Shown: positions 21,581 to 54,320, counted from the stretch's first letter. The stretch is DNA of 64,000 nt from a virus (IMGVR_UViG_3300047160_005790:24285-88284), one strand, 5' to 3'. Notes: a model not told the origin generated them from the sequence alone. Program-made: numbers and translations.

Positions 21581-21781
21581 TCACATCGTCCTCGCACCGA
21601 TTGTGAAAGCGATTCTGTGAACTACAAAGCATCCTTGCCCTGACACCTTTATCCAGCCGTACCCGGCATCAAATGTTTTGCCAGGCCAGAGAAGGCAACG
21701 ATCGGTGCGCTCGATCTTCCCGCCGATAGCGAGCAAGAAAGTGGCGCGAGCTTCTCTAGTAATCGGCTTGAAGTTTGGCAT
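21581..21781 (-). pseudogene. Truncated HNH homing endonuclease (N-terminal part only)
   Basis: CLLWPG...GYGWI...VHRIAF, then stop before the HNH motif; A/T-richer. Confidence 0.65.
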
Positions 21782-24700
21782 TAATCTGCAAATGGGTCAA
21801 TTATCCAAAGATCAGACACATCTATTTGTCGCGTCGCTGTGTAGCCTTTTTTAACTCCTCGACAAAGCATGAGATCGTGACCGAGTCGCATGCTCCAAAG
21901 TGCTTCTCGGAACTTGGGATAGCGATACCTGTCGATCCTGAGGCTTAGCTGGTCAGTTTCGTCATCGCCGATACAAACGAGCCATTTGCTGAGGTGCGGG
22001 TCTTTCACTTCCTCCGGCTTCAGCTCGATGCCGGTCTTCGCGCGGTTGAACTCGAACAGGTCGCGTTCGTTCCGCATCTGAATAGCGCCGAGCCAGATAA
22101 CCGGGATGTCTTTGCTGCGGTGATACGGCAGGTCGATTGAAACGGTGACGGGCCGCGGCACATCCTTACCGAGCTTCTTCTCTCTGATCTCCTGCTTGAC
22201 GTGAGCGATAGCCTTGTCGAGCCACAGCGCGTGAAACGGATCGTCGCTTTCGCCGAAGGCTACGATGTTTTTGATCGTCTTGTGGCCGATACCCTTCACT
22301 TCGATCAGGCGGTTCCAGTCCACGTGATGTAGCTTCGGGTTGTGCTCGCCCTCGGCCTTGCGCCATTCGATGATCGAGGTGGCCGTCACTTCGCCTATGC
22401 CCGGTACCTGCGTGAACCCGGCGTACACCTTGCCGACGCCCCGGCGCCAGGTTCGTCCGCTACGGCGGACGTTCGGCGGCACGACATCGACGGACGGCCG
22501 GTCGCAAAGCGGGTTGCCGCGAACGGCGTCGCGGATCAGCATCGCGAGCTTGTCGCCCTTGCCCTGCTCGGCGGCGCGCGTACGGTGAGCGACTGAGGCG
22601 CGACCGCCGCGGATCTTGAACATCTCGGTGTAGAAAAGCTCCGGGTGATGCTGCTTGAACCACATTGTGTGAAAGCCGATCATCGTGTAGGAGTAGGCGT
22701 GAGCAGCGTTGTTGTGATGAACGACGCCGTTCGCGACGAAGTTGTGTTCGTGATCGAGCATCTCTAGCTCGTACACCCATTCAGTTTCGAGCCGCGCCGA
22801 AACGTTGACGACGGAGCTGATCGTTGTCGGCCTGCCCTTCGAGTCGCGCCTACGGCGTATCCCCATACCGTAGTCGAACTTCTTGTGATGGTGATTACAC
22901 AGGTACATCATGTTACTCGGCTTGTGGTAACGGGCGTAATCGCCATTGAAGTCGTCAAGCGTCAGGATATGAGCGTATTCCTCGCGACCGTGACAGGCGC
23001 CGTTCGTACCGGCATGTTCACAAACGCCCTTCGCTCGTTCGAGCACGGCAGCCTTCGCGACGCTCGCCAACTCAGTTCGTCCGTCGATCCAGCTGATATT
23101 GCCTTCGCCCGACTGAAAGCCCTGACCTTCGTACGTCGTGCGCATCGGCTGTTCGCGCTTCGCCGATGGCTGCGAATAACGATACGTCGGGTCTTGACAG
23201 ATGACTTCGTCGCCCGGCTGAAGTTCGCCGAGTTCTTTGTAGCCTCGATCCGTCAAGACGCGGTGTGGCAGCGTACCGGCGAACGTCATGCCGTTTTCAA
23301 GCGTCACGTCGTACACGATTTGCGGAACGTCGGAGCGCTTGATCGAAAGGAACTCGGCGGGCCGTATCCGGCAGTCTTCTGCCGACAACGACTGAATTTT
23401 GATGCGCTTACCGTTCTGGCCGTAGCGGAGCTTCGCGCCGAGCGATGTGTCGCTGTTGTATGCCTCCCAAAGCTCTTTGAGTGTGTAGCGTCCGTCGTGG
23501 TGTCGATTTGCCCCGCCGGTTTGTATAACGGCGTCGCCGGTTAGGCAGAATGCGTAAGAGCCCGCTGTGATGCACATGCCCCAGATTTTCGCGGCTAGCT
23601 CGTCGCCCATGTCGGGGTGTAGCTCGCGGGCGCCTTCGAGCGCGAGTTCCCACTTGCGGTTGAACGCCTGCTCACCGATCTTACGGCTGATGATGCGTCG
23701 GACTTCGGCGCGGTGCGTCCAGTCGAAGTTGAAGATCTCGCCGAGAATGCGAAGGATCTGCTCCTGGTACACGATCTGGTACTGTGTGTTCGCCGTGATC
23801 TTTTCGAGCGACGGGTGAATCAAGTCGGGCTTCTTGTTGCCGGCTTTGATGTCGATGTACTCGTTCGCGGCGCCGTTGTGAAGCGGGCCGGGGCGCGCGA
23901 GTGCGTTTACGTCGGCGCACTCTTTGAAGCTCGTCGGCACGAGTGCGCCGCAGATATATCGCATCGCGCGGCCTTCGAACTGGAAGACGCCGAGGCAGTC
24001 GTTGACTCGGAACCCGGCGAGCGTGCGCTCGTCGTCGAGCGGGATGTTGTACAAATCGTCGAGCTTCCAGCCCATCTCTAGGCGGCAGTTGTTCAGCATC
24101 GTCATGTTCGACAGGGCGAGAAAGTCGAGCTTCAAAAGACCCTGCTTCTCGGCGTCGTACTTGTCCATCGACACGACTTGCTGTACGCCTTCGTCAGTCT
24201 TGCGCTCGTAGACGGCGCACACGTCGGTGATCGGGCCGGTCGAGACGACGATGCCCGCGGCGTGTACGCCGAAGCCGCGATAGTTGCCTTCTAGCTCCAT
24301 GGCGATGCCGAGGTTCGGATGTCGCTCGAATACGCCGCGCGCCGTATCGAACGTCAGCACAGTGTCCTCGATCGTCGCCGAAGCGCGCAGGTCGCCGCTC
24401 GACCGCTCGATCAGCACATTCTTGACCTGGTCTACCTCGAACTTCGGGATCTTGTACACGCGAGCCACGTCGTCCAGCGAGTTCTTGGCCTTGTAGCCGG
24501 TGAACGTTCCGATGTTCGATACGCACTCGTCGCCGTAGATACCGGCGAGGTACTCGCGCACCTGGTAACGAGTTTCGCTGTCGAAGTCGATGTCGATGTC
24601 GGGCAAGTCCTGTCGGCTCGGGTCGATAAACCGCTCGAACACCAAGTCCTCGTACAGCATCGGGTTGACCTCGGTAATGCGAAGTAGCCAGCAGGCGAGT

Positions 24701-26022
24701 GAACCGGCGCTACTGCCGCGCGCGGGGCCGACGGCGATACCGCGACCTTTGTCGCCGTGGTCCTTCGCCCAGCGTATCGCGTCGCCGACCACCAGAAAAT
24801 AGTCCACGAAGTCTTTGTCCTCGATGACCTCGCACTCGCGTTCAAGTCGCTCGCGGTACCGGCGCTGCTCACCCCGAGGTAGGCGGTCGCAACGCCGGTA
24901 TCGCCAGCCCTCTTCGAGCAAGTGTCGCCAGTATTCGACCGGCGTGGAGAACTTATCCGGCAACGGGAAGCGAACCATAGGCAGGATCGGCAGTTCGACG
25001 TTGCAGCGGTCGTAGATTTCTTCGGTCGAGAGTACGGCCTGTACGGCTTGCTTCTTCGTGAGGCCGGTCGCTTGTAGCTTGCGCACCACCGAGGCGTCGT
25101 TCATCGGCGGGCAGAGGTTCGCCGCGTAGCCCCAGTCTCGCGCTTGCTCTTCTACGGTGTGCTTTCCGGATCGGACTGCGTGAAGTACCTGCTGTAGCTC
25201 TTTCTCGGTAGGCATTGTGTAGTGGCAGTCGAATGTTGCGACAAGAGGAATGTGTAGTTCCTCGCTAAGGTCCGCAATAAGCGCATTTGCTCGACGGGTC
25301 TCAGCAAGCTCCGGAAATGCCTGTACTTCCAAGTAGTAGTTACCGTTGAAATTTGCCTTAAAGCGACGAGCAAGAGCCTTCCCTCGTTCGTAGCTCGCAT
25401 CCTTGGGGGCCACAAGCTTGCCTCCCACCAAGGATGTGAAGAGCGCTGAACCTTGACAACCGGATAGCACCACCAGGCCGTCGCGGTGATCGCGCAGCAT
25501 GCTCCAATCCGCCGTAGGTTCATAGTAGTAGCCCTCCGCGTAGGTTCGGGACACGAGGCGTAACAGGTTGTTGTAGCCGCGAGGCGTCGAAGCGAGCACC
25601 GTGAGGTGGTTCTTACGTTGCGTAGCTTCCTCGCCGATTTTGCCTGTGTACAGCTCGACGCCGAAGATCGGCTTGACCCCCGCCTTCTGAGCAGCCTTCT
25701 CTAGACGTACGTGCGACGAGACGTTGCCATGTTCGGTCATTGCGAGCCCGCGCATGCCTAGCTCAGTCGCTCGGCGAACGTGAGCTTCCGGCAGCTGGTA
25801 GCCGTCGAGGTACGAGAAGGTACTGTGATGGTGAAGCGACACGAAGGTCATCTCACGTGAGCGGTTCGGCAGGCGCCGCGTCGCACGGTCTTTGCGAATC
25901 CACGGATACTGTTCGTGCTCGCACTCGCCGTCGCGATGAACTTCGATACGAGTCTTGAGGCTGTCGAGGCTGTCATCGTGCGTAAGCGTGCGTGTGCGAC
26001 GCGGTGACGTATCAGTCGCCAA
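21781..26022 (-). CDS. dnaE: DNA polymerase III alpha subunit (C family) with intein
   Basis: PHP SLHHHS, GPARGSSAGSL, PDIDIDF, GVHAAG, KLDFL, GVFQFEG, IVYQEQI, HhH and OB domains. Confidence 0.96.
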   Translation of the reverse strand: MATDTSPRRTRTLTHDDSLDSLKTRIEVHRDGECEHEQYPWIRKDRATRRLPNRSREMTFVSLHHHSTFSYLDGYQLPEAHVRRATELGMRGLAMTEHGNVSSHVRLEKAAQKAGVKPIFGVELYTGKIGEEATQRKNHLTVLASTPRGYNNLLRLVSRTYAEGYYYEPTADWSMLRDHRDGLVVLSGCQGSALFTSLVGGKLVAPKDASYERGKALARRFKANFNGNYYLEVQAFPELAETRRANALIADLSEELHIPLVATFDCHYTMPTEKELQQVLHAVRSGKHTVEEQARDWGYAANLCPPMNDASVVRKLQATGLTKKQAVQAVLSTEEIYDRCNVELPILPMVRFPLPDKFSTPVEYWRHLLEEGWRYRRCDRLPRGEQRRYRERLERECEVIEDKDFVDYFLVVGDAIRWAKDHGDKGRGIAVGPARGSSAGSLACWLLRITEVNPMLYEDLVFERFIDPSRQDLPDIDIDFDSETRYQVREYLAGIYGDECVSNIGTFTGYKAKNSLDDVARVYKIPKFEVDQVKNVLIERSSGDLRASATIEDTVLTFDTARGVFERHPNLGIAMELEGNYRGFGVHAAGIVVSTGPITDVCAVYERKTDEGVQQVVSMDKYDAEKQGLLKLDFLALSNMTMLNNCRLEMGWKLDDLYNIPLDDERTLAGFRVNDCLGVFQFEGRAMRYICGALVPTSFKECADVNALARPGPLHNGAANEYIDIKAGNKKPDLIHPSLEKITANTQYQIVYQEQILRILGEIFNFDWTHRAEVRRIISRKIGEQAFNRKWELALEGARELHPDMGDELAAKIWGMCITAGSYAFCLTGDAVIQTGGANRHHDGRYTLKELWEAYNSDTSLGAKLRYGQNGKRIKIQSLSAEDCRIRPAEFLSIKRSDVPQIVYDVTLENGMTFAGTLPHRVLTDRGYKELGELQPGDEVICQDPTYRYSQPSAKREQPMRTTYEGQGFQSGEGNISWIDGRTELASVAKAAVLERAKGVCEHAGTNGACHGREEYAHILTLDDFNGDYARYHKPSNMMYLCNHHHKKFDYGMGIRRRRDSKGRPTTISSVVNVSARLETEWVYELEMLDHEHNFVANGVVHHNNAAHAYSYTMIGFHTMWFKQHHPELFYTEMFKIRGGRASVAHRTRAAEQGKGDKLAMLIRDAVRGNPLCDRPSVDVVPPNVRRSGRTWRRGVGKVYAGFTQVPGIGEVTATSIIEWRKAEGEHNPKLHHVDWNRLIEVKGIGHKTIKNIVAFGESDDPFHALWLDKAIAHVKQEIREKKLGKDVPRPVTVSIDLPYHRSKDIPVIWLGAIQMRNERDLFEFNRAKTGIELKPEEVKDPHLSKWLVCIGDDETDQLSLRIDRYRYPKFREALWSMRLGHDLMLCRGVKKGYTATRQIDVSDLWIIDPFAD
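22711..23547 (-). mobile_element. Intein (279 aa) with HNH endonuclease, inserted at GSYAF/NAAH
   Basis: Starts CLTGD; T..H block B (GTLPHRVLT); ends VYEL...HNFVANGVVHHN; internal C..HI...N..LC.HH. Confidence 0.9.
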
Positions 26023-26030
26023 ATGTCCCC

Positions 26031-26207
26031 CTAGAACCAGCTGATGATTTCGTCGTTTTCGTCAACACCTTCATGTAGCCCTTCGTGGAACAACCCCTTC
26101 GCACATTCGACAATTTCTCCGTCCCGGTCGAGCGCTATATCGCACGGCCCGTACCCTAACGGGTCTTCCCGGTTGTCGCCGAAGCGGCCGTAGGTCACAT
26201 TACTCAC
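26031..26207 (-). CDS. Small acidic hypothetical protein (58 aa)
   Basis: GTGA overlap with thyX stop; not in the ORF track. Confidence 0.5.
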   Translation of the reverse strand: MSNVTYGRFGDNREDPLGYGPCDIALDRDGEIVECAKGLFHEGLHEGVDENDEIISWF

Positions 26208-26824
26208 AGTTCGAGTGCCTCTGCAATAACTGGTAAGTTGTCTTGAAAGATGGTTCTAACCATAACTGCGAGCGAGCGATGCTCTGTTTGTGTGTCTTCC
26301 GTCGTTCGCAAGGCGAGGTAGTGAATCCACGATCGGATCGTTCCGTTCATGTACAGCTTCGTTTGCGTCGATAACGGCAGCAAAAAACGAGCGCTCTCGC
26401 GAGCTATGCCGCGCTTTAGGGCTTCCCGGTATATCAAGAAGCTGCGCTGTATCACGACTTCCTGTGCGTCAATGAACCACTGTTGTTCATTGTCGGCTAA
26501 GTTGTCGATCGAGCTTTGTCGGTTGGAATCTGCCTGCCGGCGACCGAGGTAGCGAATGGCATCTTTCGGCGAGGCGTAACGCTGACTGAATTCCTGAAAT
26601 TTGAAACTGCCGTGCCGCAGAAACTGTGTGGCAATTGCTCGCGACGTTTCGATCTCTACGCACATATTCGCCATGTCGAACGGCGACCAGTGTTTCTGCC
26701 GAACGAGGAACTTGATGAGGTTTGTGTCTGTGTTTTCTTGATCACTCGATACGCGGGCGATGTACAGGATAACGGCTTCGGCGTCTGGCGTGATCCAGAC
26801 GAGGCGTGCGTTGCTTTGCTTCAC
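26204..26824 (-). CDS. thyX: Flavin-dependent thymidylate synthase (canonical type)
   Basis: IARVS, HWSPF, RHGSFKFQEFSQRY, E.ARFLLP, RSWIHY, TQ.EHR; GTG 26824. Confidence 0.92.
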   Translation of the reverse strand: MKQSNARLVWITPDAEAVILYIARVSSDQENTDTNLIKFLVRQKHWSPFDMANMCVEIETSRAIATQFLRHGSFKFQEFSQRYASPKDAIRYLGRRQADSNRQSSIDNLADNEQQWFIDAQEVVIQRSFLIYREALKRGIARESARFLLPLSTQTKLYMNGTIRSWIHYLALRTTEDTQTEHRSLAVMVRTIFQDNLPVIAEALEL

Positions 26825-27837
26825 TGCGGCCTCGGCTGTTCCTTGGTCGTTACGCCCGCCGTCGGGCTCGCCAACCATTCGGCCGGATCGATACCGCGGT
26901 ACGTCGGACCCTTCACACCTAGATGTGCCGGCCCGACAGTCGCCTCCCGGTCTAGGTGCCACTCGTCCGACGAGATGCCCAGGCGCGCGAATTCTTGAAC
27001 ACGGTCACGAATCGAGCAGCCGCGGTCGAGTTCCGACATGAAGGCGCAGCGCCCGAGCCGGTAGCAGATCGGCGTAAAGCTACGGACGCCCGGCGACGCA
27101 ATCAATTCCCACTGCCAGAAATCGACGAGGCTGTCCGGTGCAGGGTGGCCGATCGTTCGATACTTCTGTATTGCCTTCATCATGCCGAGGAAGACGGCTC
27201 GCCACTCGAACTGCGCCTGCGTACAGAGTCGGTTGCCCGCGGCCTCGAACAGCGCTCGCAGGTTCGTCGTGTAGATAATGCGAGTCGTCGTCGCGTGCGG
27301 CAGTAGGTAGCGCGCGTCCTCGGCCGGGATGCCCGCGTCGATCAGGGCGTTGTACGCCTTCTCGGCGGCTCGGATCGCGTCGGTGTAGATGACGAAGGCC
27401 GGTTCGTCGGCAGCGGGGCCGGGGATAATGCTCGGCGGTAGCGCCGCTTCCTTCGCCAAACCACGCTTAACGGCGAAGCGCAGTGACTCCTGAACGTAAT
27501 ATGCGCCCAAACGTTGTCTGACCATCTGATGGGTGAAGGAGCGCGTAACGCACTCGATCATGAACTTGACTTGTACGCCTTCGAGCGGCGTGTTGAGATG
27601 CGTCTTCATCAGCTCTTCCCACGCCCAGCGCCGCTCGTCGTTCGTGATCTCGGTAAGGCTATAGACAGGATCTCCGCGATACATCCTCATATCTGCGGCG
27701 AGGTTGCCGAGCGGGTCGGGCGTACCGCTCAACATGAAGACCTGCGGCACAATCTGCCGTGAGCCTTCCGCGCGTCGCATCGCTTGTGCTTCGTACATTG
27801 CATCGTCAGACCAACGAAGGATGTCCTTGCCGGTCAC
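26821..27837 (-). CDS. Divergent ThyX-like flavoenzyme
   Basis: TPLE, VTRSFTHQMVRQRLGAYYVQESLRF, EDARYLLP, NLRAL, RLC.QAQ.EWR. Confidence 0.8.
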   Translation of the reverse strand: MTGKDILRWSDDAMYEAQAMRRAEGSRQIVPQVFMLSGTPDPLGNLAADMRMYRGDPVYSLTEITNDERRWAWEELMKTHLNTPLEGVQVKFMIECVTRSFTHQMVRQRLGAYYVQESLRFAVKRGLAKEAALPPSIIPGPAADEPAFVIYTDAIRAAEKAYNALIDAGIPAEDARYLLPHATTTRIIYTTNLRALFEAAGNRLCTQAQFEWRAVFLGMMKAIQKYRTIGHPAPDSLVDFWQWELIASPGVRSFTPICYRLGRCAFMSELDRGCSIRDRVQEFARLGISSDEWHLDREATVGPAHLGVKGPTYRGIDPAEWLASPTAGVTTKEQPRPQ

Positions 27838-28160
27838 GTGACGTTTCCTCGCACGAGCCGCTTGCCGAACACGGAATAGTTGATGATGTCGTCGAACTCA
27901 CTGTTGATCTCGGCGACCATCGGTGGCTCCGGCTCGCCGCGTTCGAGCGCACTGATGACGCGGTCGATTTTGAATCGGATTGTGCGCGCTTGGTCGAGCG
28001 TCGAGTATTGCTTCCACAGGCCGCGTCGTATTCGCTCGCGTTCGACGTAGACCTTGAATGCGTCTTCGAGCGCTGCCGCATACTCGCCCAGGTCTTCGTC
28101 CGATATGTGAGCAGTATCTGGGTACTGAATGTCACCCTCGTTGTTGAACACGATGCTCAA
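27834..28160 (-). CDS. Nucleotide-modification-associated domain 1 (Nmad1/DUF1599-like)
   Basis: R...W......I..KIDR.......D.INYS helical pattern. Confidence 0.65.
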   Translation of the reverse strand: MSIVFNNEGDIQYPDTAHISDEDLGEYAAALEDAFKVYVERERIRRGLWKQYSTLDQARTIRFKIDRVISALERGEPEPPMVAEINSEFDDIINYSVFGKRLVRGNVT

Positions 28161-28984
28161 CCTAGTACCTCCCGGCTTACGTTGTATGCAACGTCAAAGG
28201 CATCGTTCAGCAAAACGCCGTGACGCCACTCCGCCCAGCGACCGGCGTGTACGAGCCCTCGCCAGCATGTACACGTGTTGCCGATCGCCTTTACGCCTTC
28301 GATGACGCCGTCGCCCTCGAAGCCGTAAGTGCTTTCGACGCTGCAACGGTCGCCGAGGATCGAGTAGCGATACCACACGTCCTCCGGCCGACCGTTGTAG
28401 ATGATTACCTCGCGCCCCGCTTCGCCGTCCGGCAGGGCGAGCGATTTGATCCAGTACGGCACAGACTTGAACGTATGCTCGTCGTCGGCGCAGAGGAAAC
28501 GTCGCGGCAGCGTATTGATAACGACTCGGAACAGCTTGAGAAAGTCCTCGATCATGCCCGGCTCGATCAGCAAGTGATGAATGTTTCGCTCGTAGCGTTT
28601 CCACAATTGATCGTACGCCCAAATCGCGTTCCAGCTCGGATAGCTCTGGCTGTAGTTCTCCCAGCCGGTCGCGTGCGAGGAGTCGCCGTACACCTTGCGA
28701 GCGTAGCCCTCCGGCGTGCCCATACGAACGACGTTCACGAGGTTGTCGGCGTAGCTCGGCGTCAGCTCTGGCACCGCGCGTCGTAGGTGTAGCGAGCCGG
28801 GGATCTCGGACTTCTCTTTGATGCTGTAGACGAGCGGTTCGCCGCCCGCGAGTCGTACGGCGTGCGCCGCGAGCAACCCTGCCGGGCCGCAGCCGAGTAT
28901 CGCGATGTCGTTCTTTCGCGACGTTCCTGGTTTGGGCCGGGCGATCGGCGGCAGCGTCGCTTCCCAGAGCCTCGTCTGACTCAT
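28157..28984 (-). CDS. FAD-dependent protein resembling UDP-galactopyranose mutase (Glf)
   Basis: IAILGCGPAGLLAA Rossmann motif; IIYN...WYR; C-terminal AGRWAEWR like Glf GRLAEY. Confidence 0.6.
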   Translation of the reverse strand: MSQTRLWEATLPPIARPKPGTSRKNDIAILGCGPAGLLAAHAVRLAGGEPLVYSIKEKSEIPGSLHLRRAVPELTPSYADNLVNVVRMGTPEGYARKVYGDSSHATGWENYSQSYPSWNAIWAYDQLWKRYERNIHHLLIEPGMIEDFLKLFRVVINTLPRRFLCADDEHTFKSVPYWIKSLALPDGEAGREVIIYNGRPEDVWYRYSILGDRCSVESTYGFEGDGVIEGVKAIGNTCTCWRGLVHAGRWAEWRHGVLLNDAFDVAYNVSREVLG

Positions 28985-29259
28985 TGCAACGGGCTCCCTT
29001 CGTAGCGCCCGCACACCAAGCCGAGCAGGAACATGTGGAATAGCATCGAGCCGATCGCCGGTTCGAGTTGCGGGTCCATGGCTCGCCAGGCTTGGTTGTA
29101 GCGCTTGCGTAGTACGTCGATCAGGTGGTGCTGAACGTTCGCGTACGCTTCCTCGCTGACCTTTAGCTGCGCCATTTGCCGAGGAACGCTGCCCGGCGCG
29201 AGGCCGTAGATCAGGCGGAGCGTACGCTCGCCGCGTTCCATCGCTTCGGCGTCGATCAT
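28981..29259 (-). CDS. Hypothetical protein
   Basis: Coupled ORF. Confidence 0.55.
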   Translation of the reverse strand: MIDAEAMERGERTLRLIYGLAPGSVPRQMAQLKVSEEAYANVQHHLIDVLRKRYNQAWRAMDPQLEPAIGSMLFHMFLLGLVCGRYEGSPLQ

Positions 29260-29263
29260 TCGA

Positions 29264-29506
29264 TCACCCCCTCTTGCTCAGCATTCTCTTCACGTTCGCC
29301 TTCCTGCCGCGCATGGCCCGCAAGCGTGCACGCTTCTGCGAACTGAGGCGCTTACGGACGGTGACCGGCGCGCGAGTTTGTTGTCGCTGCTCGGGCTTCG
29401 GCGGCTCGGGCAACGGATCGAGATTGCGCAGGAAGACATTTTCGTCGATCTTCTTCGGCTTCTCTGATTTGTTGCGTCGAAGAATGCCGATGGTCCGCTT
29501 CTTCAT
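29264..29506 (-). CDS. Highly basic hypothetical protein
   Basis: ATGA overlap with primase stop; R/K-rich. Confidence 0.55.
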   Translation of the reverse strand: MKKRTIGILRRNKSEKPKKIDENVFLRNLDPLPEPPKPEQRQQTRAPVTVRKRLSSQKRARLRAMRGRKANVKRMLSKRG

Positions 29507-32334
29507 AGGTCTTCCTCCCGCAACAGGGCGTGTAGGGTCGGAGAAATGCGAATGTCGCCGCTGATCTTCGTGACCATTTTGAGCGCCCACAGATGGTTGA
29601 TCGTGGCGTTCGCTTCCTCGCGGGCATAGTTCAACATTTCCTCGACGTCCTGCCGTCGGAAGTGACCTTGGTCTCGTAGGAACGTTGCGAGCCCAGGGCG
29701 CCCCTGTAGGAAGTCGATCGTCGCCTCGCGGTTGTCGAGCGCGGTTTGTATGTCGCCGCGCAGCTGCTTCGAGCGTTCGGCGTAGCCGAACGTCGGCATG
29801 TTGTACAGGTGATCCATGAAGCGAACGGCGTCACGAACGTGCGCCGGGGTGATGAGCAGTAACTCGTTCGACTTGTCGCTGCTGAAGGTGCGGGCCGCGA
29901 GCGCCGCCGAGACGCGGGCGATTTTGACCCGAATGTCGGCAGCTTGTACGAGCGGCGGGTCCTCGACGTAGCGCCTGCCCATATCGTTCGCCGCGGCCAG
30001 CACCGCTTCCTCGGCGCCGTCCGTCCAAATCACCTGGTCAGCTTGTCTCGTCCACGCCCACATCAGTAGGTTGTGACAGGCTTCGCTCGTGTAGGTCGCC
30101 GTACCGCTCGGCCGCGCCCGGTTGATGTCCTCGGGGTTGACGTCACCGATCGCGAGCGCCACCACCAGGTCGAAGCGGGCGATGTCCTCAGGGTTGCCGA
30201 TCAGCGGGCCGAGCGCTTGTACGCCGTAGGTGAAGTCGGCCATCTTCGCGTTACGCGGGTTGCTCATCCAGATCAGCCGCGTTCGAGCGTACGTCACTTC
30301 TTGTTGAATCTTCGTCAGACGGGCGACGCCTGCCGTTCGCACGTCGCTCATGCGAGAGATCTCTTCGGGCGAGAGGCCGCTCGCCTCGTCAAGTATCACG
30401 AGGCGGCGATCGTTGATGGGGATGGCGCCCCACGTCACCGTCCAATCGCGACCGCCTATTTGTTGCAGGCCGCCGACGATACCGGCGAAGCTCGCACTTT
30501 CACCACCAACGATCTCGCCAGCCCCGAGATGTCTGACGAGTTGAGTCGCCGCCTCGCTCTTGCCGGTTCGCGTGTCCCCGAGGATGAGGCTTTCGAGCCA
30601 CGCCTTCCGAATCATCTGCCCCGCAAACTTAAAGGAGAGTACGCTGTGAAACGTCAGGTCCATGACCGCATGCATTTCGACGCGCCCGATGATCTTCGTT
30701 ACCTGCGCCGCTAGCTCGCGGTTGATCTCGACTAGCTTCCTGAGCGGCCCTCGGCTGTCCGATCGGAAGCGGCTCATGAGCTTTACGCGCTCGGGCGTCA
30801 CTTCGAATCGGTCAACGCTCGTTTCGAGGCGCTCTAGTTCCCAGGCCAGGAACTCGTTGACCTGCGTATTCGGGTTCGCGAACAACGCGCCGGTGACATC
30901 GACAGTGTTGTTCGGCAGCGTGTCGTGGTGCCCGACGTTCGTGATCTTGATGTTCTTATAGTCCTGGGCCTTCGTGCCGTCGCTCTGGTCGATACTCGGT
31001 CGGCCGAACAACTGCTCGACTGCCTGATGTTCTGTAACGACGATGGAGAGTTTCTTACAACTCGGGGCGCCGTACTCCTGCCGCACGAGGTCTATGACGT
31101 TCTTCGTCGGCGTGTCGAGCATAGCGAGTATCGTTGGACTTTCCTTCGGTATCTCGATGACCGCGTCGCCGCTGGCCATTAACGGGCAAGTGTCGCAAGC
31201 CTTACCGGCGTCTCGCGAACACGTTAGGCGCGCGACTTTCGGCAGCGAGTAGCCGGGCTCCTTGCGACCCTTGATCGTGACCTGAATGTGAAGCGGCTTG
31301 CCGAGGTTGCGGGCGTCGAAGCTCTCTAGCACCGTCGCCGATATGACACCGACACCGTTCGTGTTTTGCTCGGTCTGCTTGTCCCAGGGCTCTGCCGTCG
31401 CGAGCAAGCGCTCGAAGTCGTTGCGGTCGTACTCGCGCCAGAAGTCGCTGAGGTCTTGGCCGTGCTTCGGTACGCGCGGGTACGGCAGGGCGATTACGCG
31501 AACGTCGGCGTTCTTGCCGAGGATGTGGCCGAGCTTGTTGTTCGCTTTGAAGCCTTTGTCGTCGCAGTCGTGCGCGAGGTAGACGACCATGTCCGAGAAC
31601 AACTCGGTCCACTTGCCGTTCCAGGAGTCGGCGGCGCCGGTGCGCGTGATCGCCGGGTAGCCGTTCATGATCGTGAGGATGATGTCCCACTCGCCCTCGC
31701 CGATGATGATGAACTCCGGCTTCGGCTTGATCTGTTGCATCGGGAACAGCGTCGGGCGGTTGTGCCCGGTAAGTCCCCAGATCTTGCGCCGGTTCGGGCC
31801 GGGGCGCGGGTTGTAGCGACGTACGTTGATCAGCTCGCCGTCGAAGTCGCGTACCGGGATCGTGTAAATGCCTTTGCTGCGATCCCAGCCGATCTCGAAC
31901 CTGATGATGCCGTCGGTCGTTATGCCGCGTTCGGCAATAAGCGCCTCGCGCTCGGCGTCGCTATTCATCAACACCGAGTGCCAAGCGCTTACTCGCGCCT
32001 CGCTCGGTTCTTCGGGCGGCTTGTCGCTGGTGCGATGCACGCCGCCGTTCGAGGAGACGGCGCCGATCGGCGGCCGCAACCATTCTTCCTGCCTCGCGAT
32101 CAGGCTGCGAACCGAGCCGCCCCCGCAACCAGCGTTGCAGTAGTAAACGCCCTTGTCAACGTTGAGCGTTGCCGATCGAACTACGTCCGCGATACCTTTG
32201 TCGCCGTGTAGCGGGCAATGTAGGTTGATCTCGCGCGTCGGCGGATCATCATACGTGTTGAGGTAGGAAGCATGGTCGCCGCCACCTTCGAGGTAGGGCC
32301 GCAACAGATCAAGTTGTCGTTTAGTTATCGGCAT
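29503..32334 (-). CDS. Primase-helicase fusion: Zn finger, Toprim and MCM-like AAA+ helicase
   Basis: CPLHGD...C..GC; IGEGEWD, HDCDDKG; GDTRTGKS, LVILDE, ARFDL. Confidence 0.85.
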   Translation of the reverse strand: MPITKRQLDLLRPYLEGGGDHASYLNTYDDPPTREINLHCPLHGDKGIADVVRSATLNVDKGVYYCNAGCGGGSVRSLIARQEEWLRPPIGAVSSNGGVHRTSDKPPEEPSEARVSAWHSVLMNSDAEREALIAERGITTDGIIRFEIGWDRSKGIYTIPVRDFDGELINVRRYNPRPGPNRRKIWGLTGHNRPTLFPMQQIKPKPEFIIIGEGEWDIILTIMNGYPAITRTGAADSWNGKWTELFSDMVVYLAHDCDDKGFKANNKLGHILGKNADVRVIALPYPRVPKHGQDLSDFWREYDRNDFERLLATAEPWDKQTEQNTNGVGVISATVLESFDARNLGKPLHIQVTIKGRKEPGYSLPKVARLTCSRDAGKACDTCPLMASGDAVIEIPKESPTILAMLDTPTKNVIDLVRQEYGAPSCKKLSIVVTEHQAVEQLFGRPSIDQSDGTKAQDYKNIKITNVGHHDTLPNNTVDVTGALFANPNTQVNEFLAWELERLETSVDRFEVTPERVKLMSRFRSDSRGPLRKLVEINRELAAQVTKIIGRVEMHAVMDLTFHSVLSFKFAGQMIRKAWLESLILGDTRTGKSEAATQLVRHLGAGEIVGGESASFAGIVGGLQQIGGRDWTVTWGAIPINDRRLVILDEASGLSPEEISRMSDVRTAGVARLTKIQQEVTYARTRLIWMSNPRNAKMADFTYGVQALGPLIGNPEDIARFDLVVALAIGDVNPEDINRARPSGTATYTSEACHNLLMWAWTRQADQVIWTDGAEEAVLAAANDMGRRYVEDPPLVQAADIRVKIARVSAALAARTFSSDKSNELLLITPAHVRDAVRFMDHLYNMPTFGYAERSKQLRGDIQTALDNREATIDFLQGRPGLATFLRDQGHFRRQDVEEMLNYAREEANATINHLWALKMVTKISGDIRISPTLHALLREEDL

Positions 32335-32342
32335 AGCTGAGA

Positions 32343-32374
32343 GGAGGGGGCCGGGATGGAGACCGACCCCCTCC
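32343..32374 (-). promoter_or_regulatory. 12-bp hairpin sequestering GGAGG just before the primase ATG
   Basis: GGAGGGGGTCGG/CCGGCCCCCTCC with one G-U pair in mRNA sense. Confidence 0.6.
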
Positions 32375-32378
32375 GCCG

Positions 32379-32654
32379 TCAGCCGGACCGTTTCGTCAAC
32401 CTACTCGCTCTGATTCCGAGCTTGCTGTACATCGCCTTGCGGACTTTGTAGAGCTCTTGTGCGAACGCACGAGGCTCAACGCGATACCGCCTCGCGTCGT
32501 ACTCGCGGACGATTTCCTCGAACAGTTCATCGGTCGAGTCGTCCGCGACGTCCCAGGCGACGGTCGTAGGGTTGACCAGATTCATAGTGAGCTGGTACCC
32601 GTTGAGGGAGAGCACGCTCGCCAGTGCGAGATCAGTTGTCGAGTAGCCCGACAC
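32379..32654 (-). CDS. DUF5659-like protein
   Basis: TTDLALAS.L...GY...VEP..F..EL..V. Confidence 0.55.
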   Translation of the reverse strand: MSGYSTTDLALASVLSLNGYQLTMNLVNPTTVAWDVADDSTDELFEEIVREYDARRYRVEPRAFAQELYKVRKAMYSKLGIRASRLTKRSG

Positions 32655-32669
32655 CGTTGCTTGGTCGTA

Positions 32670-33563
32670 CTACTCGTCGCCTTCAAACGGGTTGGAGCCG
32701 TCGTCCTCGCGCAAAACGGCGACCAGCTTGTCCTTCGAGAGTCGGCCGCTCGGCATGTCGAGCTTGCGGTCAGCGATCTCGTCCTTCAGCTCCTTGACTT
32801 CCCACTCGTCGTAGTCGTCCTCTGGAGCCGCTGCCCCGGCGCCGTCGCCGCCGCCCGACTCGTCGCTTTCGGTAAGGGCGTCGATGTACTTCTGCGTCGT
32901 CTTGCGGCCGCTGATTTCGAGGCCGCGCTCCTCGGCTTCCGCCTTCAGCTCATCGAGCGACCACGCCGAGTAGTCCTCCGGCTCGCCGCCGTCGGCGGCA
33001 GCGCCGTCGCTGCTCTGCGCCTCGTCGTCCTCGACAAGAATGCCGATCAACTTCGCACTCGTAGCGCGGCCGGTGATCTCGAGCCCGCGCTCCCCGATCT
33101 CTGCCTTCAAATCGTCGAGGGACCATTCCTCGTAGTTCTCCGGCCCCTCGCCGCCATCGTCGCCGTCGGCAGGCTCGTCGCCGTTGTCGCCGCCGCGCAA
33201 CGGCAGGAGGGTGCCAGCGCGGGCGACGTAGTTGCCTTCGTACGAGTCGCCGACGACCTTGACGCGCATCTTCTTGCCGACGATCTTGTCGGTGTCGATC
33301 TCGCCCTTGTCGCGTAGGCCAAGTGCCTTCACGAATTCCTTGAGCTTCCAGTCGCTGCGCTGGCTGAGGCCGATGTACGTGTGAACAGGCACATAGTCCT
33401 CGTCCACGAACTCCAGCGTCAGATGAATATCGTTCGCCGGGTCGCCGTTGGTCTTCTCGGTGCGCTGCTCAGCGTCGCGAATCGCCACCGTGTAGGTGCC
33501 GACCTTTGCGTGATCGCCGCTTCGTGACTCTACGTCAGAAACATCATACTTTATGCGTGCCAT
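32670..33563 (-). CDS. DUF669-like ssDNA-binding protein with three SAP/HeH-like repeats
   Basis: WKLKEF..ALG...IVGK.M.V; three copies of Y..W....LK.E...R.L. Confidence 0.7.
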   Translation of the reverse strand: MARIKYDVSDVESRSGDHAKVGTYTVAIRDAEQRTEKTNGDPANDIHLTLEFVDEDYVPVHTYIGLSQRSDWKLKEFVKALGLRDKGEIDTDKIVGKKMRVKVVGDSYEGNYVARAGTLLPLRGGDNGDEPADGDDGGEGPENYEEWSLDDLKAEIGERGLEITGRATSAKLIGILVEDDEAQSSDGAAADGGEPEDYSAWSLDELKAEAEERGLEISGRKTTQKYIDALTESDESGGGDGAGAAAPEDDYDEWEVKELKDEIADRKLDMPSGRLSKDKLVAVLREDDGSNPFEGDE

Positions 33564-34402
33564 CAGCTACTTCGCTCCCTTCTCGTAGTACGAGTCGATG
33601 TTCGACGTGCCGCCGGTCGTTGTGTTGGTCGGCGCCCCTCCCTTCGTTGCGGCGCGGCCGCTTGTCGCGCCTCTTCGATACCAGCCATGAACTTCTCCAT
33701 CGTCGGATCGACGATGTTGCCGTTCGGCGGGAAGGCGTTGTACTGATTCTTGGCGTAGACGTATTCAGTCTTCTGGGTACGCAAGATACGCTGGGTGATC
33801 TGCTTACCGCCGCGTTCCCGCTCGGCTACTTCGAGGTAGCCGACGACGTTCATGTAGCCGCAGACCTTCGAGATCATGCCCTTGCCCTGAATCCACGGTA
33901 GGCGCTTGATGCCACCGTTGTCCGACATCGGATCGGGCAGGTCTTCCGAGTGTGCCGTGATACCGAAGTTGAACATGTCGGGGCCGACCATGTAGCGCAC
34001 CCATTCGCCGATGCGCTCCATATTGATGCCGTACTCCAGCTTGTCGCGGCCGTACTCGCGTCGCTTCGGATTGCGGTCGAGCGTCTGCTCCCAGATGTCA
34101 TCGAGTCCGACATCTTGCCAGAGCGAGATCGAATCGAGCCACACCCAGTCCCAGTCGGCGCCGTCATGTCGGCAGTATTCGAGCGCCTCCCAGGCGTCTG
34201 TCCAGTTCTGTACGACCCATTCTTCGCAACCGCTGCCGCGAATCGGCTGAACTTGGTCGAGCGGCGGCCGGATGATGAGGATCTTGTAGCTGCGTCCGCC
34301 GGTGCCGATGAAGGAGGTCTTCCCGGCCGAGGGGTCACCGTGTATCAGGGCGCAGATGTGCTCGCGAGTCGAGACGGGCTTGATCGAGGGATGCTTCGCC
34401 AT
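33563..34402 (-). CDS. Sak4-like AAA recombinase
   Basis: IHGDPSAGKTSF, WVWLDSIS, TAH, YAKN. Confidence 0.82.
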   Translation of the reverse strand: MAKHPSIKPVSTREHICALIHGDPSAGKTSFIGTGGRSYKILIIRPPLDQVQPIRGSGCEEWVVQNWTDAWEALEYCRHDGADWDWVWLDSISLWQDVGLDDIWEQTLDRNPKRREYGRDKLEYGINMERIGEWVRYMVGPDMFNFGITAHSEDLPDPMSDNGGIKRLPWIQGKGMISKVCGYMNVVGYLEVAERERGGKQITQRILRTQKTEYVYAKNQYNAFPPNGNIVDPTMEKFMAGIEEARQAAAPQRREGRRPTQRPAARRTSTRTTRRERSS

Positions 34403-34641
34403 CAGGGTAGTTCACAAAGCAACGTCACGTAGGTGACGCCGCTGCCGCCGAGGGTCGTTTCCGGGTGGTCGTTGTAGAAGAACGTGCGCTCCTTCACCTT
34501 CAACGCGAAGTCGATGCCGCTTTCGTCCCGGTAGCCGATGATCTCGTCGGGCAACGGGATCGGTACGCTCTCGGCGCCTTCGATCACGTACTCGAATTCC
34601 TTCATTTCTGTTTCATGTTTGATGTGAAGCTCGACTCTCAT
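34402..34641 (-). CDS. Hypothetical protein
   Basis: Coupled ORF. Confidence 0.55.
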   Translation of the reverse strand: MRVELHIKHETEMKEFEYVIEGAESVPIPLPDEIIGYRDESGIDFALKVKERTFFYNDHPETTLGGSGVTYVTLLCELP

Positions 34642-35012
34642 GATTCCTCGATTTCCTCGGCTTCGGCGTCAACCTCGTTCGCCGGGTCCAGAGCCTCGAA
34701 GTGATCGTGAATGGCACTGCCCGTTAGCGCCGACGGCGCCGTGCGTGGTTGGTTGACGCGGCCGGTCTTGATCTGCCCGGCTACGTCGAAGCTGATCACG
34801 AGATCGTGGTCGAACTCCATCGTGACCAAGTGCCCTTCGTTCCTCATGCGCGTCAGGGTGCGACCGACGAGCGCGTTTTGCCCGAAGATATCACCTGAGA
34901 TGCGCCCCGCTAGCGCCTCGGTCGCGACAGCTTCCTGATCGCCTTCGAACGTCACCTTGGTCGTTTTTGGCCCGAATTGTTGGGCGGGCCGTACGTCGTC
35001 TTGTTCGCTCAC
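34638..35012 (-). CDS. Hypothetical protein
   Basis: AAGGAGG SD; coupled. Confidence 0.6.
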   Translation of the reverse strand: MSEQDDVRPAQQFGPKTTKVTFEGDQEAVATEALAGRISGDIFGQNALVGRTLTRMRNEGHLVTMEFDHDLVISFDVAGQIKTGRVNQPRTAPSALTGSAIHDHFEALDPANEVDAEAEEIEES

Positions 35013-35163
35013 GTTGTCGCCCCCTCCTTGTAGGGTGGAGCGCTCGGTTGGGTAGGGTCGCCCCGGTCACAGGGCGGGGGTAGGACCGAGCGCTCCGTCG
35101 AGGCGGCACTGCGCGCGGCTCCCCTCAGCAAGCAGAGCAGCACCGCCTCGGCGCAACGTTCGA

Positions 35164-36015
35164 TCATCGGAAGAACTCCGTCGCCATCACGACGTCCTTC
35201 ATTTCGAACACCCAGGCCTCCTTTACAGCGCGGTACGCCGCCTCGCCGATCCAATCTCCGAACATGAGTCGCCACTTACAAGCGAAGCGCTTGCTCGGGT
35301 GACTGACGTACTTCGGCCAAAGCTCGTATGCGATCTCGTGGCAGCGCTGTTCGAGCGTCGCTCGCTGATCGACACCGCCTGCGAAGCCGGTAATGCCGCC
35401 GGGGTCCTTCGGCTTGTTGACGGACTTGATGTGAAGGCTGGTCGAGACGTACCACATATGACCGGCGCGTACGATGCGACGGCCGATCTCCGACGTATCG
35501 TGGTACACCGTCAGCCGCGGCTCGAAGTTGCCCGCCAGCAAAGCGATCCGTACGCTGATGGCCATTGCCTTGTCCTTCGGAGCGCCGGTCGCGAGGCAGA
35601 GGCCGGGTTCCTTCGCTAGCTCGTTGCCGTTCGGGTACCAGAGGCCGTAGGGCGGCATCCAGCCGCCGCACACGCCGCCGCGCCCGGCCGCGACGAATTC
35701 AAGCAGCGGCCGAACGTCGCCGCCGGTCGGGCGCGTATCGTCGTCCGCCTGTATGAAAGCATCCCAGCCTAAGCGGTTCGCGAGCAACACACTACTGGCG
35801 CGGGCGTAGCCGACGCCGCGGTTGCTACGCTGATGATGATAGATTCGAACGTTGCGCCCGAGCCCCAAGTGCCGCACTTCCAGGTCGTAGTCGAACACTT
35901 GCTTGCGTTCGGTCAGTATGAGGATCGGAACGTCTTGTTCGACCCAGAACGGTAGCGTCTGCGGCAGGATGTCGTGAGCGCGGTCGCGGCTGAGGATGAT
36001 GACGCCGCCCTTCAC
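35164..36015 (-). CDS. GT-A glycosyltransferase of the TET-associated (TAGT/GREB1-like) type
   Basis: IILSRDR...T, GVGYAR, IQADDD, PGG...R......WP.YV. Confidence 0.7.
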   Translation of the reverse strand: MKGGVIILSRDRAHDILPQTLPFWVEQDVPILILTERKQVFDYDLEVRHLGLGRNVRIYHHQRSNRGVGYARASSVLLANRLGWDAFIQADDDTRPTGGDVRPLLEFVAAGRGGVCGGWMPPYGLWYPNGNELAKEPGLCLATGAPKDKAMAISVRIALLAGNFEPRLTVYHDTSEIGRRIVRAGHMWYVSTSLHIKSVNKPKDPGGITGFAGGVDQRATLEQRCHEIAYELWPKYVSHPSKRFACKWRLMFGDWIGEAAYRAVKEAWVFEMKDVVMATEFFR

Positions 36016-53391: not shown

Positions 53392-53654
53392 GTCGAGATC
53401 CGCCCTTCCTGATCGACGCCGCCCGAGATGATCCACTCGCCCTTGTCGTCCAGCAACGTGAAGCCGAGGTAGCTGGTGGACAAGCCGAACGTGCCGACGC
53501 CCGCCCGCACCGTCGCCGCCTTGTAGCGCTGAGCGATTCCGACGAGGCTCATGATCTGCTCGCCGGTGATGACGAACTCGCGGTTGGGGTCGATCACGAT
53601 GCCAATCTCGAAGAACGGCTTGCGTTCGACCTTCTCCTGTGGCTCTGTTGCCAT
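53388..53654 (-). CDS. Hypothetical protein
   Basis: Preceded by leader. Confidence 0.65.
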   Translation of the reverse strand: MATEPQEKVERKPFFEIGIVIDPNREFVITGEQIMSLVGIAQRYKAATVRAGVGTFGLSTSYLGFTLLDDKGEWIISGGVDQEGRIST

Positions 53655-53657
53655 TCT

Positions 53658-53730
53658 GGTACCCTCCTAACTTCGGTTTCGGAGGCAACTGGCCTCCCGC
53701 CCAGCCGTTGTGCCTACGGCCGGGCGGCAG
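53658..53730 (-). promoter_or_regulatory. Double-hairpin leader 17
   Basis: CCGCCCGGCCG/CGGCTGGGCGG + GGAGGC/GCCTCC + GAAACC + AGGAGGGTACC. Confidence 0.87.
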
Positions 53731-53739
53731 CGTCAGCTG

Positions 53740-54045
53740 CTATGTGCCCTCTCCCAACTTGAGCACTGCGTAGTTCGGCTTGATCTTGCGGTTGATATAC
53801 TCCCCAGTGCTGCGCGCGTACGCTGCCGCGACGGCTCGCTGCCGCGAAACGCCGAGATACACGAACGTTACCGGGTTCTCGAACTTGCCGAACTTGGTGT
53901 ACATGTTGCCGGCGTCGTCCCAACCGACGGCCGCGACGTTGCTCGACTCGATCAATCGCCAGTTGACGATCATCTCGATCTTGCCGCCGAGCGCGTCGGG
54001 AACGACGAACAATACGCCGTCGAGCTTTGCGCTCTTAAGGGGCAT
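53740..54045 (-). CDS. KTSC-domain protein
   Basis: IESSNVAAVGWD...Y.KF...Y.GV......A.S.G.YIN..IK..Y. Confidence 0.85.
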   Translation of the reverse strand: MPLKSAKLDGVLFVVPDALGGKIEMIVNWRLIESSNVAAVGWDDAGNMYTKFGKFENPVTFVYLGVSRQRAVAAAYARSTGEYINRKIKPNYAVLKLGEGT

Positions 54046-54256: not shown

Positions 54257-54257
54257 G

Positions 54258-54318: not shown

Positions 54319-54320
54319 GT

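What the first reader, a model, noticed from the sequence alone, without database searches (positions are those of the whole stretch)
22708..23550. HNH intein in DnaE whose +1 residue is Asn, so it lacks the C-extein nucleophile
Seen: the intein begins CLTGD after GSYAF and ends ...VYELEM...HNFVANGVVHHN, followed by NAAHAYSY (codons AAC AAC GCT). Excision restores the conserved DnaE F-N-x-x-H motif, so +1 is Asn. Block F has Glu (VYEL) where Asp is usual, and the endonuclease is HNH rather than LAGLIDADG. Known: canonical splicing needs Cys, Ser or Thr at +1; some bacterial intein-like domains ligate without it; the cyanobacterial split DnaE site is two residues upstream; some DnaE alleles have FC at this position. 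Inference: the intein splices by a non-canonical route (e.g. aminolysis by the freed alpha-amine), or only cleaves to give a two-chain polymerase, or the polymerase tolerates the insert. Since DnaE is presumably essential, any of these is unusual.
Basis: partly seen in the sequence, partly recalled or inferred. Interest (0 to 1): 0.85.

Follow-up and report, generated by a model that had tools for sequence, protein, structure and literature searches.

The report
Phage polymerase intein lacking splice nucleophile
A phage's only DNA polymerase gene carries a mobile self-splicing element (intein) that lacks the Cys/Ser/Thr every known intein uses to rejoin its host protein, and the same defect recurs across a whole lineage, including a cultured phage, so it must mature by an unusual route.

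Summary
Observation confirmed. The minus-strand DnaE-like gene (21781..26022) contains a 279-aa intein (23547..22711). It has Cys1, block B TLPH, an in-frame HNH nuclease and a terminal His-His-Asn. The next codon (22710..22708, AAC) is the Asn of the polymerase's F-N-x-x-H motif.

This is neither an error nor a dead allele:
- At least 17 divergent relatives (33-60% identical) sit at the same F|N site, and all have Asn at +1.
- A sister type, seen in three contigs, sits one residue later with Ala at +1.
- One F|N member is in Gordonia phage Wojtek, an isolated phage. Its 34 closest relatives have the empty site.
- Both the window phage and Wojtek have DnaE as their only detected polymerase.
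- The nucleophile-less inteins nest among more than 110 canonical +1-Ser inteins at neighbouring sites, and a single origin is compatible with the data.
- Cys1, the block B His, the terminal Asn and the HNH catalytic residues are invariant. The block F Asp and two other active-site positions have changed.

Most likely the intein forms the thioester and cyclises its Asn. The freed alpha-amine then joins the exteins, as in type A bacterial intein-like domains. Cleavage-only maturation is the main rival, and only experiment can decide between them. The Wojtek intein is catalogued in a 2025 preprint without comment on +1. The scan flagged one relative before, on other DNA.

The parts
21781..26022 (-). 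DnaE-like DNA polymerase III alpha gene (open frame; likely start ATG at 25851), host gene of the intein
   Evidence: 1413-aa ORF; PHP, DNA_pol3_alpha, DNA_pol3_finger, HHH domains; NCBIfam Pol III alpha 567 bits; the only PF07733 match in the 88-kb virus record
23548..25851 (-). N-extein (PHP, palm, thumb, first part of fingers), ending ...ITAGSYAF
22711..23547 (-). 279-aa intein (Hint splicing domain with in-frame HNH endonuclease)
   Evidence: Intein_splicing 42.6 bits above the 35.8 cut-off; AF2 model pLDDT 75.9, best Foldseek matches are class 1 inteins (4o1r TM 0.89)
23545..23547 (-). Cys1 (TGC), N-terminal splice nucleophile
   Evidence: invariant in 133 of 133 relatives
23263..23274 (-). 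Block B TLPH (Thr B:7, His B:10)
   Evidence: His invariant; Thr is replaced by Ser in 10 of 14 F|N inteins against 3 of 112 canonical FNx|S-site ones (3 of 118 when the Y|SFN-site rows are pooled)
22870..23022 (-). HNH endonuclease core (Cys..Cys, AH, N, CNHHHKKFDY)
   Evidence: translation; Pfam HNH_2; H193, N212, N218 and H221 invariant within the lineage
22759..22776 (-). Block F VYELEM, with Glu at position F:4 where Asp is usual
22711..22746 (-). Block G HNFVANGVVHHN: terminal Asn, penultimate His, extra His at G:5
22708..22710 (-). +1 residue Asn (AAC), the Asn of the polymerase F-N-x-x-H motif; no Cys/Ser/Thr
   Evidence: Asn in all F|N relatives
21781..22710 (-). C-extein (rest of fingers, HhH region, C-terminal part; includes the stop codon)

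Best explanation
Shown: this is a genuine, mobile class-1-type intein with an in-frame HNH homing endonuclease. It sits between Phe and Asn of the conserved F-N-x-x-H motif of a phage's only DNA polymerase. It belongs to a lineage of at least 17 F|N members plus a +1-Ala sister type. That lineage descends from canonical +1-Ser DnaE inteins and has kept the residues for thioester formation (Cys1, block B His) and for C-terminal Asn cyclisation, but it has no Cys/Ser/Thr at +1. Inferred: with no side-chain nucleophile, the transesterification step and the branched intermediate cannot occur. Most likely Cys1 forms the Phe-thioester and the terminal Asn cyclises, releasing the C-extein with a free alpha-amine on Asn+1. 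The two polymerase halves fold together and hold that amine next to the thioester, which it attacks directly to make the native Phe-Asn peptide bond. This is the route proposed for type A bacterial intein-like domains. The relaxed block F Asp, which normally couples the steps through the +1 nucleophile, and the new His at G:5, a possible general base for the amine, would be adaptations to this route.
For: The anatomy is intact: Cys1, TLPH, HNH, VYELEM...HHN then N. The predicted fold matches class 1 inteins. +1 Asn appears in every relative at the F|N site: P0002-P0008, P0052, P0069, P0074, P0088, P0091, P0096, Wojtek, L010, L023. A +1-Ala type (FN|A) occurs in three independent contigs, so no +1 side chain is required. 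Within the lineage identity is 33-60%. Even so, Cys1, His B:10, the terminal Asn and the HNH catalytic residues are among only 32 invariant positions. The lineage nests among +1-Ser inteins, and a single origin is not rejected (p-AU 0.96; the constrained tree is better by 70 lnL). Active-site changes are F:4 Asp in 4 of 14 against 111 of 112, B:7 Thr to Ser in 10 of 14 against 3 of 112, and G:5 His in 10 of 14 against 0 of 112 (one search gives the same contrast pooled over 118 canonical rows). For function in vivo, Gordonia phage Wojtek is an isolated phage with this intein. Its 34 closest relatives have the empty TTC|AAC site, with clustered flank mismatches as after homing. Wojtek and the window phage (CheckV 100% complete) each have one DnaE and no family A polymerase, and the window phage also has no family B polymerase. 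Precedent: type A BILs end in His-Asn, lack the +1 nucleophile and can splice by Asn cyclisation followed by aminolysis. Asp F:4 contacts Cys1/Cys+1 and restrains Asn cyclisation (review PMC4031507).
Against: There is no biochemical evidence for any member. In BIL domains and in +1 mutants of inteins, cleavage products predominate over ligation (PMC4031507, PMC7664689). The residues conserved here serve cleavage-only maturation equally well. The active-site changes trace to one or two evolutionary events, so their association with loss of the nucleophile is weak statistically; the Wojtek subclade keeps Asp at F:4. I could not measure the model geometry around the junction.
Confidence: 0.45

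Rival explanations
1. Cleavage only. The intein removes itself by thioester hydrolysis at its N-terminus and Asn cyclisation at its C-terminus. The polymerase then works as two non-covalently associated chains (about 770 and 309 aa).
For: The same conserved residues (Cys1, His B:10, His-Asn) are all this route needs. The literature says Hint domains without a +1 nucleophile give mainly cleaved products. Phage DnaE-like polymerases are tolerated as two genes in Arthrobacter and Microbacterium phages, though split at the PHP|palm border rather than here. Unchecked notes from this scan describe phage DnaE genes split near this very motif.
Against: Cleavage would leave charged termini inside the most conserved fingers motif, directly at the invariant Phe and Asn. 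According to those unchecked notes, the split DnaEs near this site keep intein-derived clasps, which suggests the bare halves do not hold together well. All related inteins at neighbouring sites keep a +1 Ser, so they are selected for ligation.
Confidence: 0.3
2. The intein is not removed. The polymerase tolerates a 279-aa insertion in its fingers domain.
For: No splicing has been shown. The insertion is a compact, independently folding domain whose N- and C-termini lie together.
Against: Cys1, His B:10 and the terminal Asn would then be free to drift, yet they are invariant over 33-60% identical sequences. The insertion interrupts a motif that is invariant in all DnaE homologues seen.
Confidence: 0.08
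3. The side-chain amide of Asn+1 acts as the nucleophile. It forms an imide-type branched intermediate that rearranges to the peptide bond after Asn cyclisation.
For: Asn at +1 is invariant at the F|N site. Inteins already use an Asn side-chain nitrogen as a nucleophile in step 3 (established chemistry).
Against: Asn is invariant here in intein-free polymerases as well, so its conservation is explained by the extein. The sister type has Ala at +1 in three contigs. There is no precedent.
Confidence: 0.05
4. Sequencing or assembly error, or a dead allele in a decaying element. The true or ancestral +1 codon would be AGC, ACC or TGC.
For: AAC is one substitution away from AGC or ACC.
Against: At least 17 independent relatives from different samples have Asn at +1. 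Cluster members reproduce it. The Wojtek genome is from an isolated phage. The ORF is fully open and the virus record is rated complete.
Confidence: 0.02

Closest known systems
Canonical HNH-containing DnaE inteins at the F-N-x|S-H site (metagenomic and bacterial, e.g. P0009, P0064 and more than 100 others found here)
   Same: Homologous over the full length (E down to 1e-50). They share the N-terminal CLTGD motif, block B, the HNH core, block G HNF.ANG..HN, the same host protein and the same motif.
   Different: They sit two residues downstream and have Ser at +1, Asp at F:4 (111 of 112) and Ser/Thr at G:5. The window's intein sits at F|N with Asn at +1, Glu at F:4 and His at G:5.
Gordonia phage Wojtek gp72 intein (OL455890, 53608-54405), catalogued as a class 1 HNH intein in Gosselin, Arsenault and Gogarten, bioRxiv 10.1101/2025.01.02.630785
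   Same: Same F|N site, +1 Asn, HHN end and HNH endonuclease; 34% identical.
   Different: It keeps Asp at F:4. The preprint lists it and its insertion site but does not mention the missing +1 nucleophile, and elsewhere states that Ser/Thr/Cys is required.
Type A bacterial intein-like (BIL) domains (Amitai 2003; Dassa 2004; Aranko 2013; Clostridium thermocellum BIL, PDB 2LWY)
   Same: Hint fold, Cys1, C-terminal His-Asn, no +1 nucleophile. Their proposed aminolysis route is the likeliest mechanism here.
   Different: BILs lack endonucleases and sit in variable regions of non-conserved, often secreted, bacterial proteins. This element is mobile, carries an HNH nuclease, interrupts an invariant motif of a replicative polymerase, and by tree and fold is an intein.
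Cyanobacterial split DnaE intein (Ssp/Npu DnaE)
   Same: Same polymerase motif; the Y|C(S)FN site is two residues upstream. Relatives of the window's intein also use that site, with Ser or Thr at +1.
   Different: It is split, has no endonuclease and has a canonical Cys at +1.

Membership tests
Intein (class 1) | Hint/intein splicing domain | tested here: met
   Pfam PF14890 42.6 bits against a 35.8 cut-off. AF2 model matches NpuDnaB, Mtu RecA and Ssp DnaB inteins with TM up to 0.89.
Intein (class 1) | Cys/Ser at position 1 and block B Thr-x-x-His | tested here: met
   Cys1 and TLPH; Cys1 and His invariant in 133 relatives.
Intein (class 1) | C-terminal His-Asn (block G) | tested here: met
   ...VVHHN; terminal Asn in 133 of 133.
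Intein (class 1) | Cys, Ser or Thr as first C-extein residue (+1) | tested here: not met
   +1 is Asn (AAC 22710..22708), and no nucleophile from +1 to +6. Asn in all same-site relatives.
Intein (class 1) | In-frame insertion in a conserved site, with colinear intein-free homologues | tested here: met
   Intein-free homologues read GSYAFNAAH. LuckyLeo's empty site aligns exactly with Wojtek minus 798 nt.
Intein (class 1) | Homing endonuclease and sporadic, mobile distribution | tested here: met
   HNH_2 in 11 of 14 members. 1 of 35 Lambovirus-type phages carries it, with mismatches clustered in the flanks.
Intein (class 1) | Demonstrated protein splicing | not testable with these tools
   Needs expression and mass spectrometry.
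Type A bacterial intein-like domain | Hint domain ending His-Asn and lacking a +1 nucleophile | tested here: met
Type A bacterial intein-like domain | No endonuclease; located in variable regions of non-conserved bacterial proteins | tested here: not met
   HNH is present, and the host site is the invariant F-N-x-x-H motif of DnaE.
Type A bacterial intein-like domain | Sequence or structural kinship with BIL domains rather than inteins | tested here: not met
   Nearest relatives are canonical DnaE inteins. Foldseek ranks about 40 intein entries above Cth BIL 2lwy (TM 0.79).
DNA polymerase III alpha (DnaE) | PHP, palm (DNA_pol3_alpha), fingers and HhH domains in order | tested here: met

The most novel reading that the evidence does not exclude
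These elements are a fourth mechanistic class of intein. They would be mobile, endonuclease-bearing inteins that have dispensed with the C-extein nucleophile and ligate an essential polymerase by extein-templated attack of the free alpha-amine on the Cys1 thioester. Freedom from the +1 requirement would let them occupy sites (F|N, FN|A) closed to all other inteins.
Probability: 0.4. Interest if true: 0.88.

Novelty: new variant of a known kind. Interest (0 to 1): 0.78.

Why it matters
Reviews state that every intein needs Cys, Ser or Thr at +1. The only Hint domains without it (BILs) are non-mobile and mostly just cleave. Here a mobile intein lineage in the sole replicative polymerase of phages has persisted and diversified without that residue.

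If it ligates, it is a natural, evolved traceless ligation system with no sequence requirement at +1. That would matter for protein engineering, where the +1 Cys/Ser scar is a standing limitation. It would also remove a constraint thought to restrict where inteins can insert. If it only cleaves, it shows that a replicative polymerase can be matured into two chains by a selfish element.

Either outcome can be tested directly, because one carrier (Gordonia phage Wojtek) is in culture with 34 intein-free sister phages as controls.

Tried and rejected
- **Alternative boundaries.** Shifting either junction, using the earlier block G His-Asn, or using the second Asn gives no Cys/Ser/Thr at +1 and destroys the F-N-x-x-H motif. 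The +5 position is Ser/Cys in most relatives but Ala in the window, so it is not a conserved nucleophile.
- **RNA-level removal.** There is no Rfam match at E<=1 in 22400..23900, and the insert is an in-frame Hint domain.
- **Antisense ORF 22885..23544 (+), 219 aa.** No Pfam hit; taken as a chance ORF.
- **PDB by sequence.** No hit at E<=0.01; the fold search was needed.
- **Single-sequence scan of IMG/VR.** Found nothing; the alignment-based scan found 22 loci.
- **Split DnaE genes in Arthrobacter and Microbacterium phages.** They turned out to be split at the PHP|palm border, not at the intein site, so they bear only loosely on the two-chain idea.
- **+2 residue.** Its variability (A/V/L/I/F/Y) looked linked to the intein, but intein-free LuckyLeo has the same Ile as Wojtek, so it is a lineage effect.
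- **GC content.** The intein (56-59%) is only slightly below the flanks (60-65%), which is uninformative.
- **Complex prediction.** I did not run it on the two extein halves. Halves of one known fold would pass regardless, so it would not separate ligation from cleavage.

Full report
**What is in the sequence.**
The finding lies in a minus-strand ORF, 21781..26022 (1413 aa from a TTG). Pfam finds PHP, DNA_pol3_alpha, DNA_pol3_finger and HhH domains, and NCBIfam Pol III alpha models score up to 567 bits. These alignments start at residue 57-58, so the real start is probably ATG 25851.

After ...ITAGSYAF the frame continues with CLTGD... for 279 residues and ends ...HNFVANGVVHHN, followed by NAAHAYSYT. 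In window coordinates:
- Cys1 is 23547..23545.
- Block B TLPH is 23274..23263.
- The HNH core is 23022..22870.
- Block F VYELEM is 22776..22759.
- Block G is 22746..22711.
- The +1 Asn (AAC) is 22710..22708.

The insert passes Pfam's Intein_splicing cut-off (42.6 against 35.8 bits). It has an HNH_2 match that is weak in this copy but present in 11 of 14 relatives. An AlphaFold2 model of the insert with 20-residue flanks has mean pLDDT 75.9. Its best PDB matches are class 1 inteins: NpuDnaB 4o1r at TM 0.89, Mtu RecA at 0.84-0.87 and Ssp DnaB. The Clostridium thermocellum BIL domain scores lower, at 0.79. No Rfam family matches the region.

**The +1 residue is Asn and no other boundary rescues it.**
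About 35 intein-free homologues read ...AGSYAFNAAH..., and one (P0036) has FNAAHAYSY exactly. Only excision of CLTGD...VVHHN restores this. Residues +1 to +6 are N-A-A-H-A-Y, with no Cys, Ser or Thr. Position +5 is Ser or Cys in most relatives but Ala here.

**It is a lineage, not an accident.**
A word-indexed search gave seven proteins, 43-54% identical over the region, with the same F|C...N|N.AH junctions (P0002-P0008). All but P0003 end His-His-Asn; P0003 ends Met-Lys-Asn. An exhaustive phmmer search of 1.84 billion representatives gave 405 hits at E<=0.001. I extracted junctions for all the proteins retrieved. The same HNH-intein family occupies several adjacent positions of the DnaE motif:
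- Y|SFN, with +1 Ser or Thr.
- F-N-x|S-H, with +1 Ser; 112 complete examples.
- F|N, with +1 Asn; 14 complete plus one partial.
- FN|A, with +1 Ala (P0053).

A scan of IMG/VR added two more F|N members, L010 ending ISHN|NIAH and L023 ending VSAN|NAAH. It also added further canonical sites: G|SYGFN and FNTAH|S. The +1-Ala type is present in three contigs that are 99% identical but not the same. Several carriers lie on contigs of 64-74 kb, the size of whole phage genomes. The window's own record is an 88-kb virus genome rated 100% complete.

**A cultured carrier.**
The only hit in the phage collection is Gordonia phage Wojtek (OL455890, gp72), isolated on Gordonia rubripertincta. Its junctions are ...ATYSF|CVTGD... 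and ...GFIHHN|NIAHCVSY. Of 35 phages with a near-identical polymerase gene, only Wojtek has the insert. In LuckyLeo (93% identical) the site reads AGC TTC AAC ATC GCT CAC. Wojtek minus 798 nt is colinear with it. Mismatches cluster within about 30 nt on each side while the more distant flanks are nearly identical. That pattern is what homing with co-conversion leaves behind.

Wojtek and the window phage each encode one DnaE and no family A polymerase, and the window phage has no family B polymerase either. A propagating phage thus depends on a polymerase that carries this intein.

**Where the lineage came from, and what changed.**
In a maximum-likelihood tree of 133 complete inteins, the F|N sequences form two strongly supported clades. 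One has 10 rows, including the window's intein (SH-aLRT 100). The other has 4 rows, including Wojtek (99), and is sister to the +1-Ala type (91). Both nest among +1-Ser inteins. Forcing all 15 nucleophile-less inteins into one clade gave a tree that was better by 70 log-likelihood units (p-AU 0.96), so a single origin is compatible with the data.

Within the group, pairwise identity is 33-60% (median 42%). Only 32 of 279 positions are invariant. They include Cys1, the block B His, the terminal Asn and the HNH residues H193, N212, N218 and H221. Three active-site positions differ from the canonical relatives:

| Position | F\|N inteins (14) | Canonical FNx\|S inteins (112) |
|---|---|---|
| Block F:4 | Asp in 4 (Met 6, Glu 3, Ser 1; Glu in the window) | Asp in 111 |
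| Block B:7 | Ser in 10, Thr in 4 | Thr in 109, Ser in 3 |
| G:5 (before His-Asn) | His in 10 (Asn 2, Cys 1, Met 1) | Ser/Thr in 110, His in 0 |

These changes trace to one or two events, so they are suggestive rather than statistically independent. The Wojtek subclade keeps the Asp.

**How it probably works.**
The review by Mills, Johnson and Perler (PMC4031507) names Cys/Ser/Thr at +1 as the nucleophile for steps 2 and 4 of all intein classes. It describes BILs as the Hint domains that lack it. Type A BILs end in His-Asn and can splice by thioester formation, Asn cyclisation and attack of the freed amino group on the thioester, although cleavage dominates. [quoted passage not shown] In the Pho RadA intein it restrains Asn cyclisation until the branched intermediate forms. 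Iwai's group likewise notes that BILs give mainly cleaved products (PMC7664689).

The window's intein keeps exactly the residues for steps 1 and 3, has lost the partner of step 2, and in its clade has relaxed the residue that couples the steps. I therefore favour a type-A-BIL-like route (about 0.45). Cys1 makes the Phe thioester. The terminal Asn cyclises. The alpha-amine of Asn+1 is held in place because the two polymerase halves fold into one fingers domain, and it makes the Phe-Asn bond. His at G:5 is a candidate general base for this step. The +1-Ala sister type argues that no +1 side chain is needed.

The main rival (about 0.3) is that the two cleavages occur without ligation and the polymerase works as two chains. 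Conservation cannot separate the two. Against the rival, the free termini would fall on the two invariant motif residues, and all neighbouring relatives keep a +1 Ser. Retention of the intein (about 0.08) does not fit the invariance of the catalytic residues. A role for the Asn side-chain amide (about 0.05) is disfavoured by the +1-Ala type. Sequencing error or a dead allele (about 0.02) is excluded as far as sequence data can go.

**What is already known.**
A 2025 preprint surveying actinobacteriophage inteins (bioRxiv 10.1101/2025.01.02.630785) reports DNA polymerase III alpha as a newly found intein host with in-frame HNH. Its supplement lists Wojtek 53608-54405 as a class 1 HNH intein with insertion site ...AGCTTC|AACATC.... 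The text never mentions the +1 residue of this intein and states that Ser, Thr or Cys is needed for splicing. Full-text searches for inteins without a C-extein nucleophile returned only the BIL literature.

Several unchecked notes describe phage DnaE genes split near this motif with splicing-dead intein remnants.

**Verdict.**
The element is an intein by fold, phylogeny, site and mobility, but it fails the one defining chemical requirement at +1. It works, at best guess, like a type A BIL without being one. I rate it a new variant of a known kind, of high interest to intein and phage-replication specialists. It can be tested directly in a cultured phage.

Noticed in passing
P0053, P0201, P0202 (metagenome proteins; contigs up to 32 kb): A sister intein type sits one residue later (YAFN|CVTGD...LISHN|AAHAASY) with Ala at +1. 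It appears in three 99%-identical but distinct contigs. 10 of the 12 differences between P0053 and P0201 fall at positions 923-1009, inside the intein.
   Followed up: partly
L019, L021 (IMG/VR loci); P0116, P0117, P0131, P0145: A subgroup of related inteins at the FNK|SH site appears to begin with Thr (FNK|TIG.., TVG.., TIC..) rather than Cys, and has an atypical ...PDSPPVVSHN end. L021 carries two inteins only six residues apart (..FVCHN|SYGFNK|TVGRS..).
   Followed up: no
L020, L024-L026 (IMG/VR loci): The same HNH-intein family uses further insertion points: FNTAH|S and G|SYGFN. At least six points within a nine-residue stretch of DnaE are occupied, which makes the motif a marked intein hot spot.
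   Followed up: partly
L002 (Arthrobacter phage Wollypog), L003, L004 (Microbacterium phages): DnaE-like polymerase genes are split into two ORFs at the PHP|palm border (about aa 310-345). Wollypog has a free-standing HNH endonuclease gene and a small ORF between the halves.
   Followed up: partly
window 25852..26022 (-): The long ORF begins at a TTG 57 codons upstream of the ATG where homology to DnaE starts. The Arg/Thr-rich extension is probably not translated.
   Followed up: partly
window 22885..23544 (+): A 219-aa antisense ORF lies entirely inside the intein and has no Pfam match. It is probably a chance open frame. I note it because antisense homing endonucleases are reported in some phage inteins.
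   Followed up: partly
window 22870..23022 (-): In this copy the HNH zinc-binding motifs deviate from the family consensus: CEHAG...AC instead of CEHCG, and CNHHH instead of CNSCH. The endonuclease may be weakened or may coordinate zinc differently.
   Followed up: no
window 26204..36015: The neighbouring minus-strand genes were flagged by first readers as ThyX-like paralogues and a possible DNA-modification pathway. Wojtek and the Arthrobacter phage Wollypog also place ThyX next to the DnaE-like gene; Wojtek has MazG there too.
   Followed up: no
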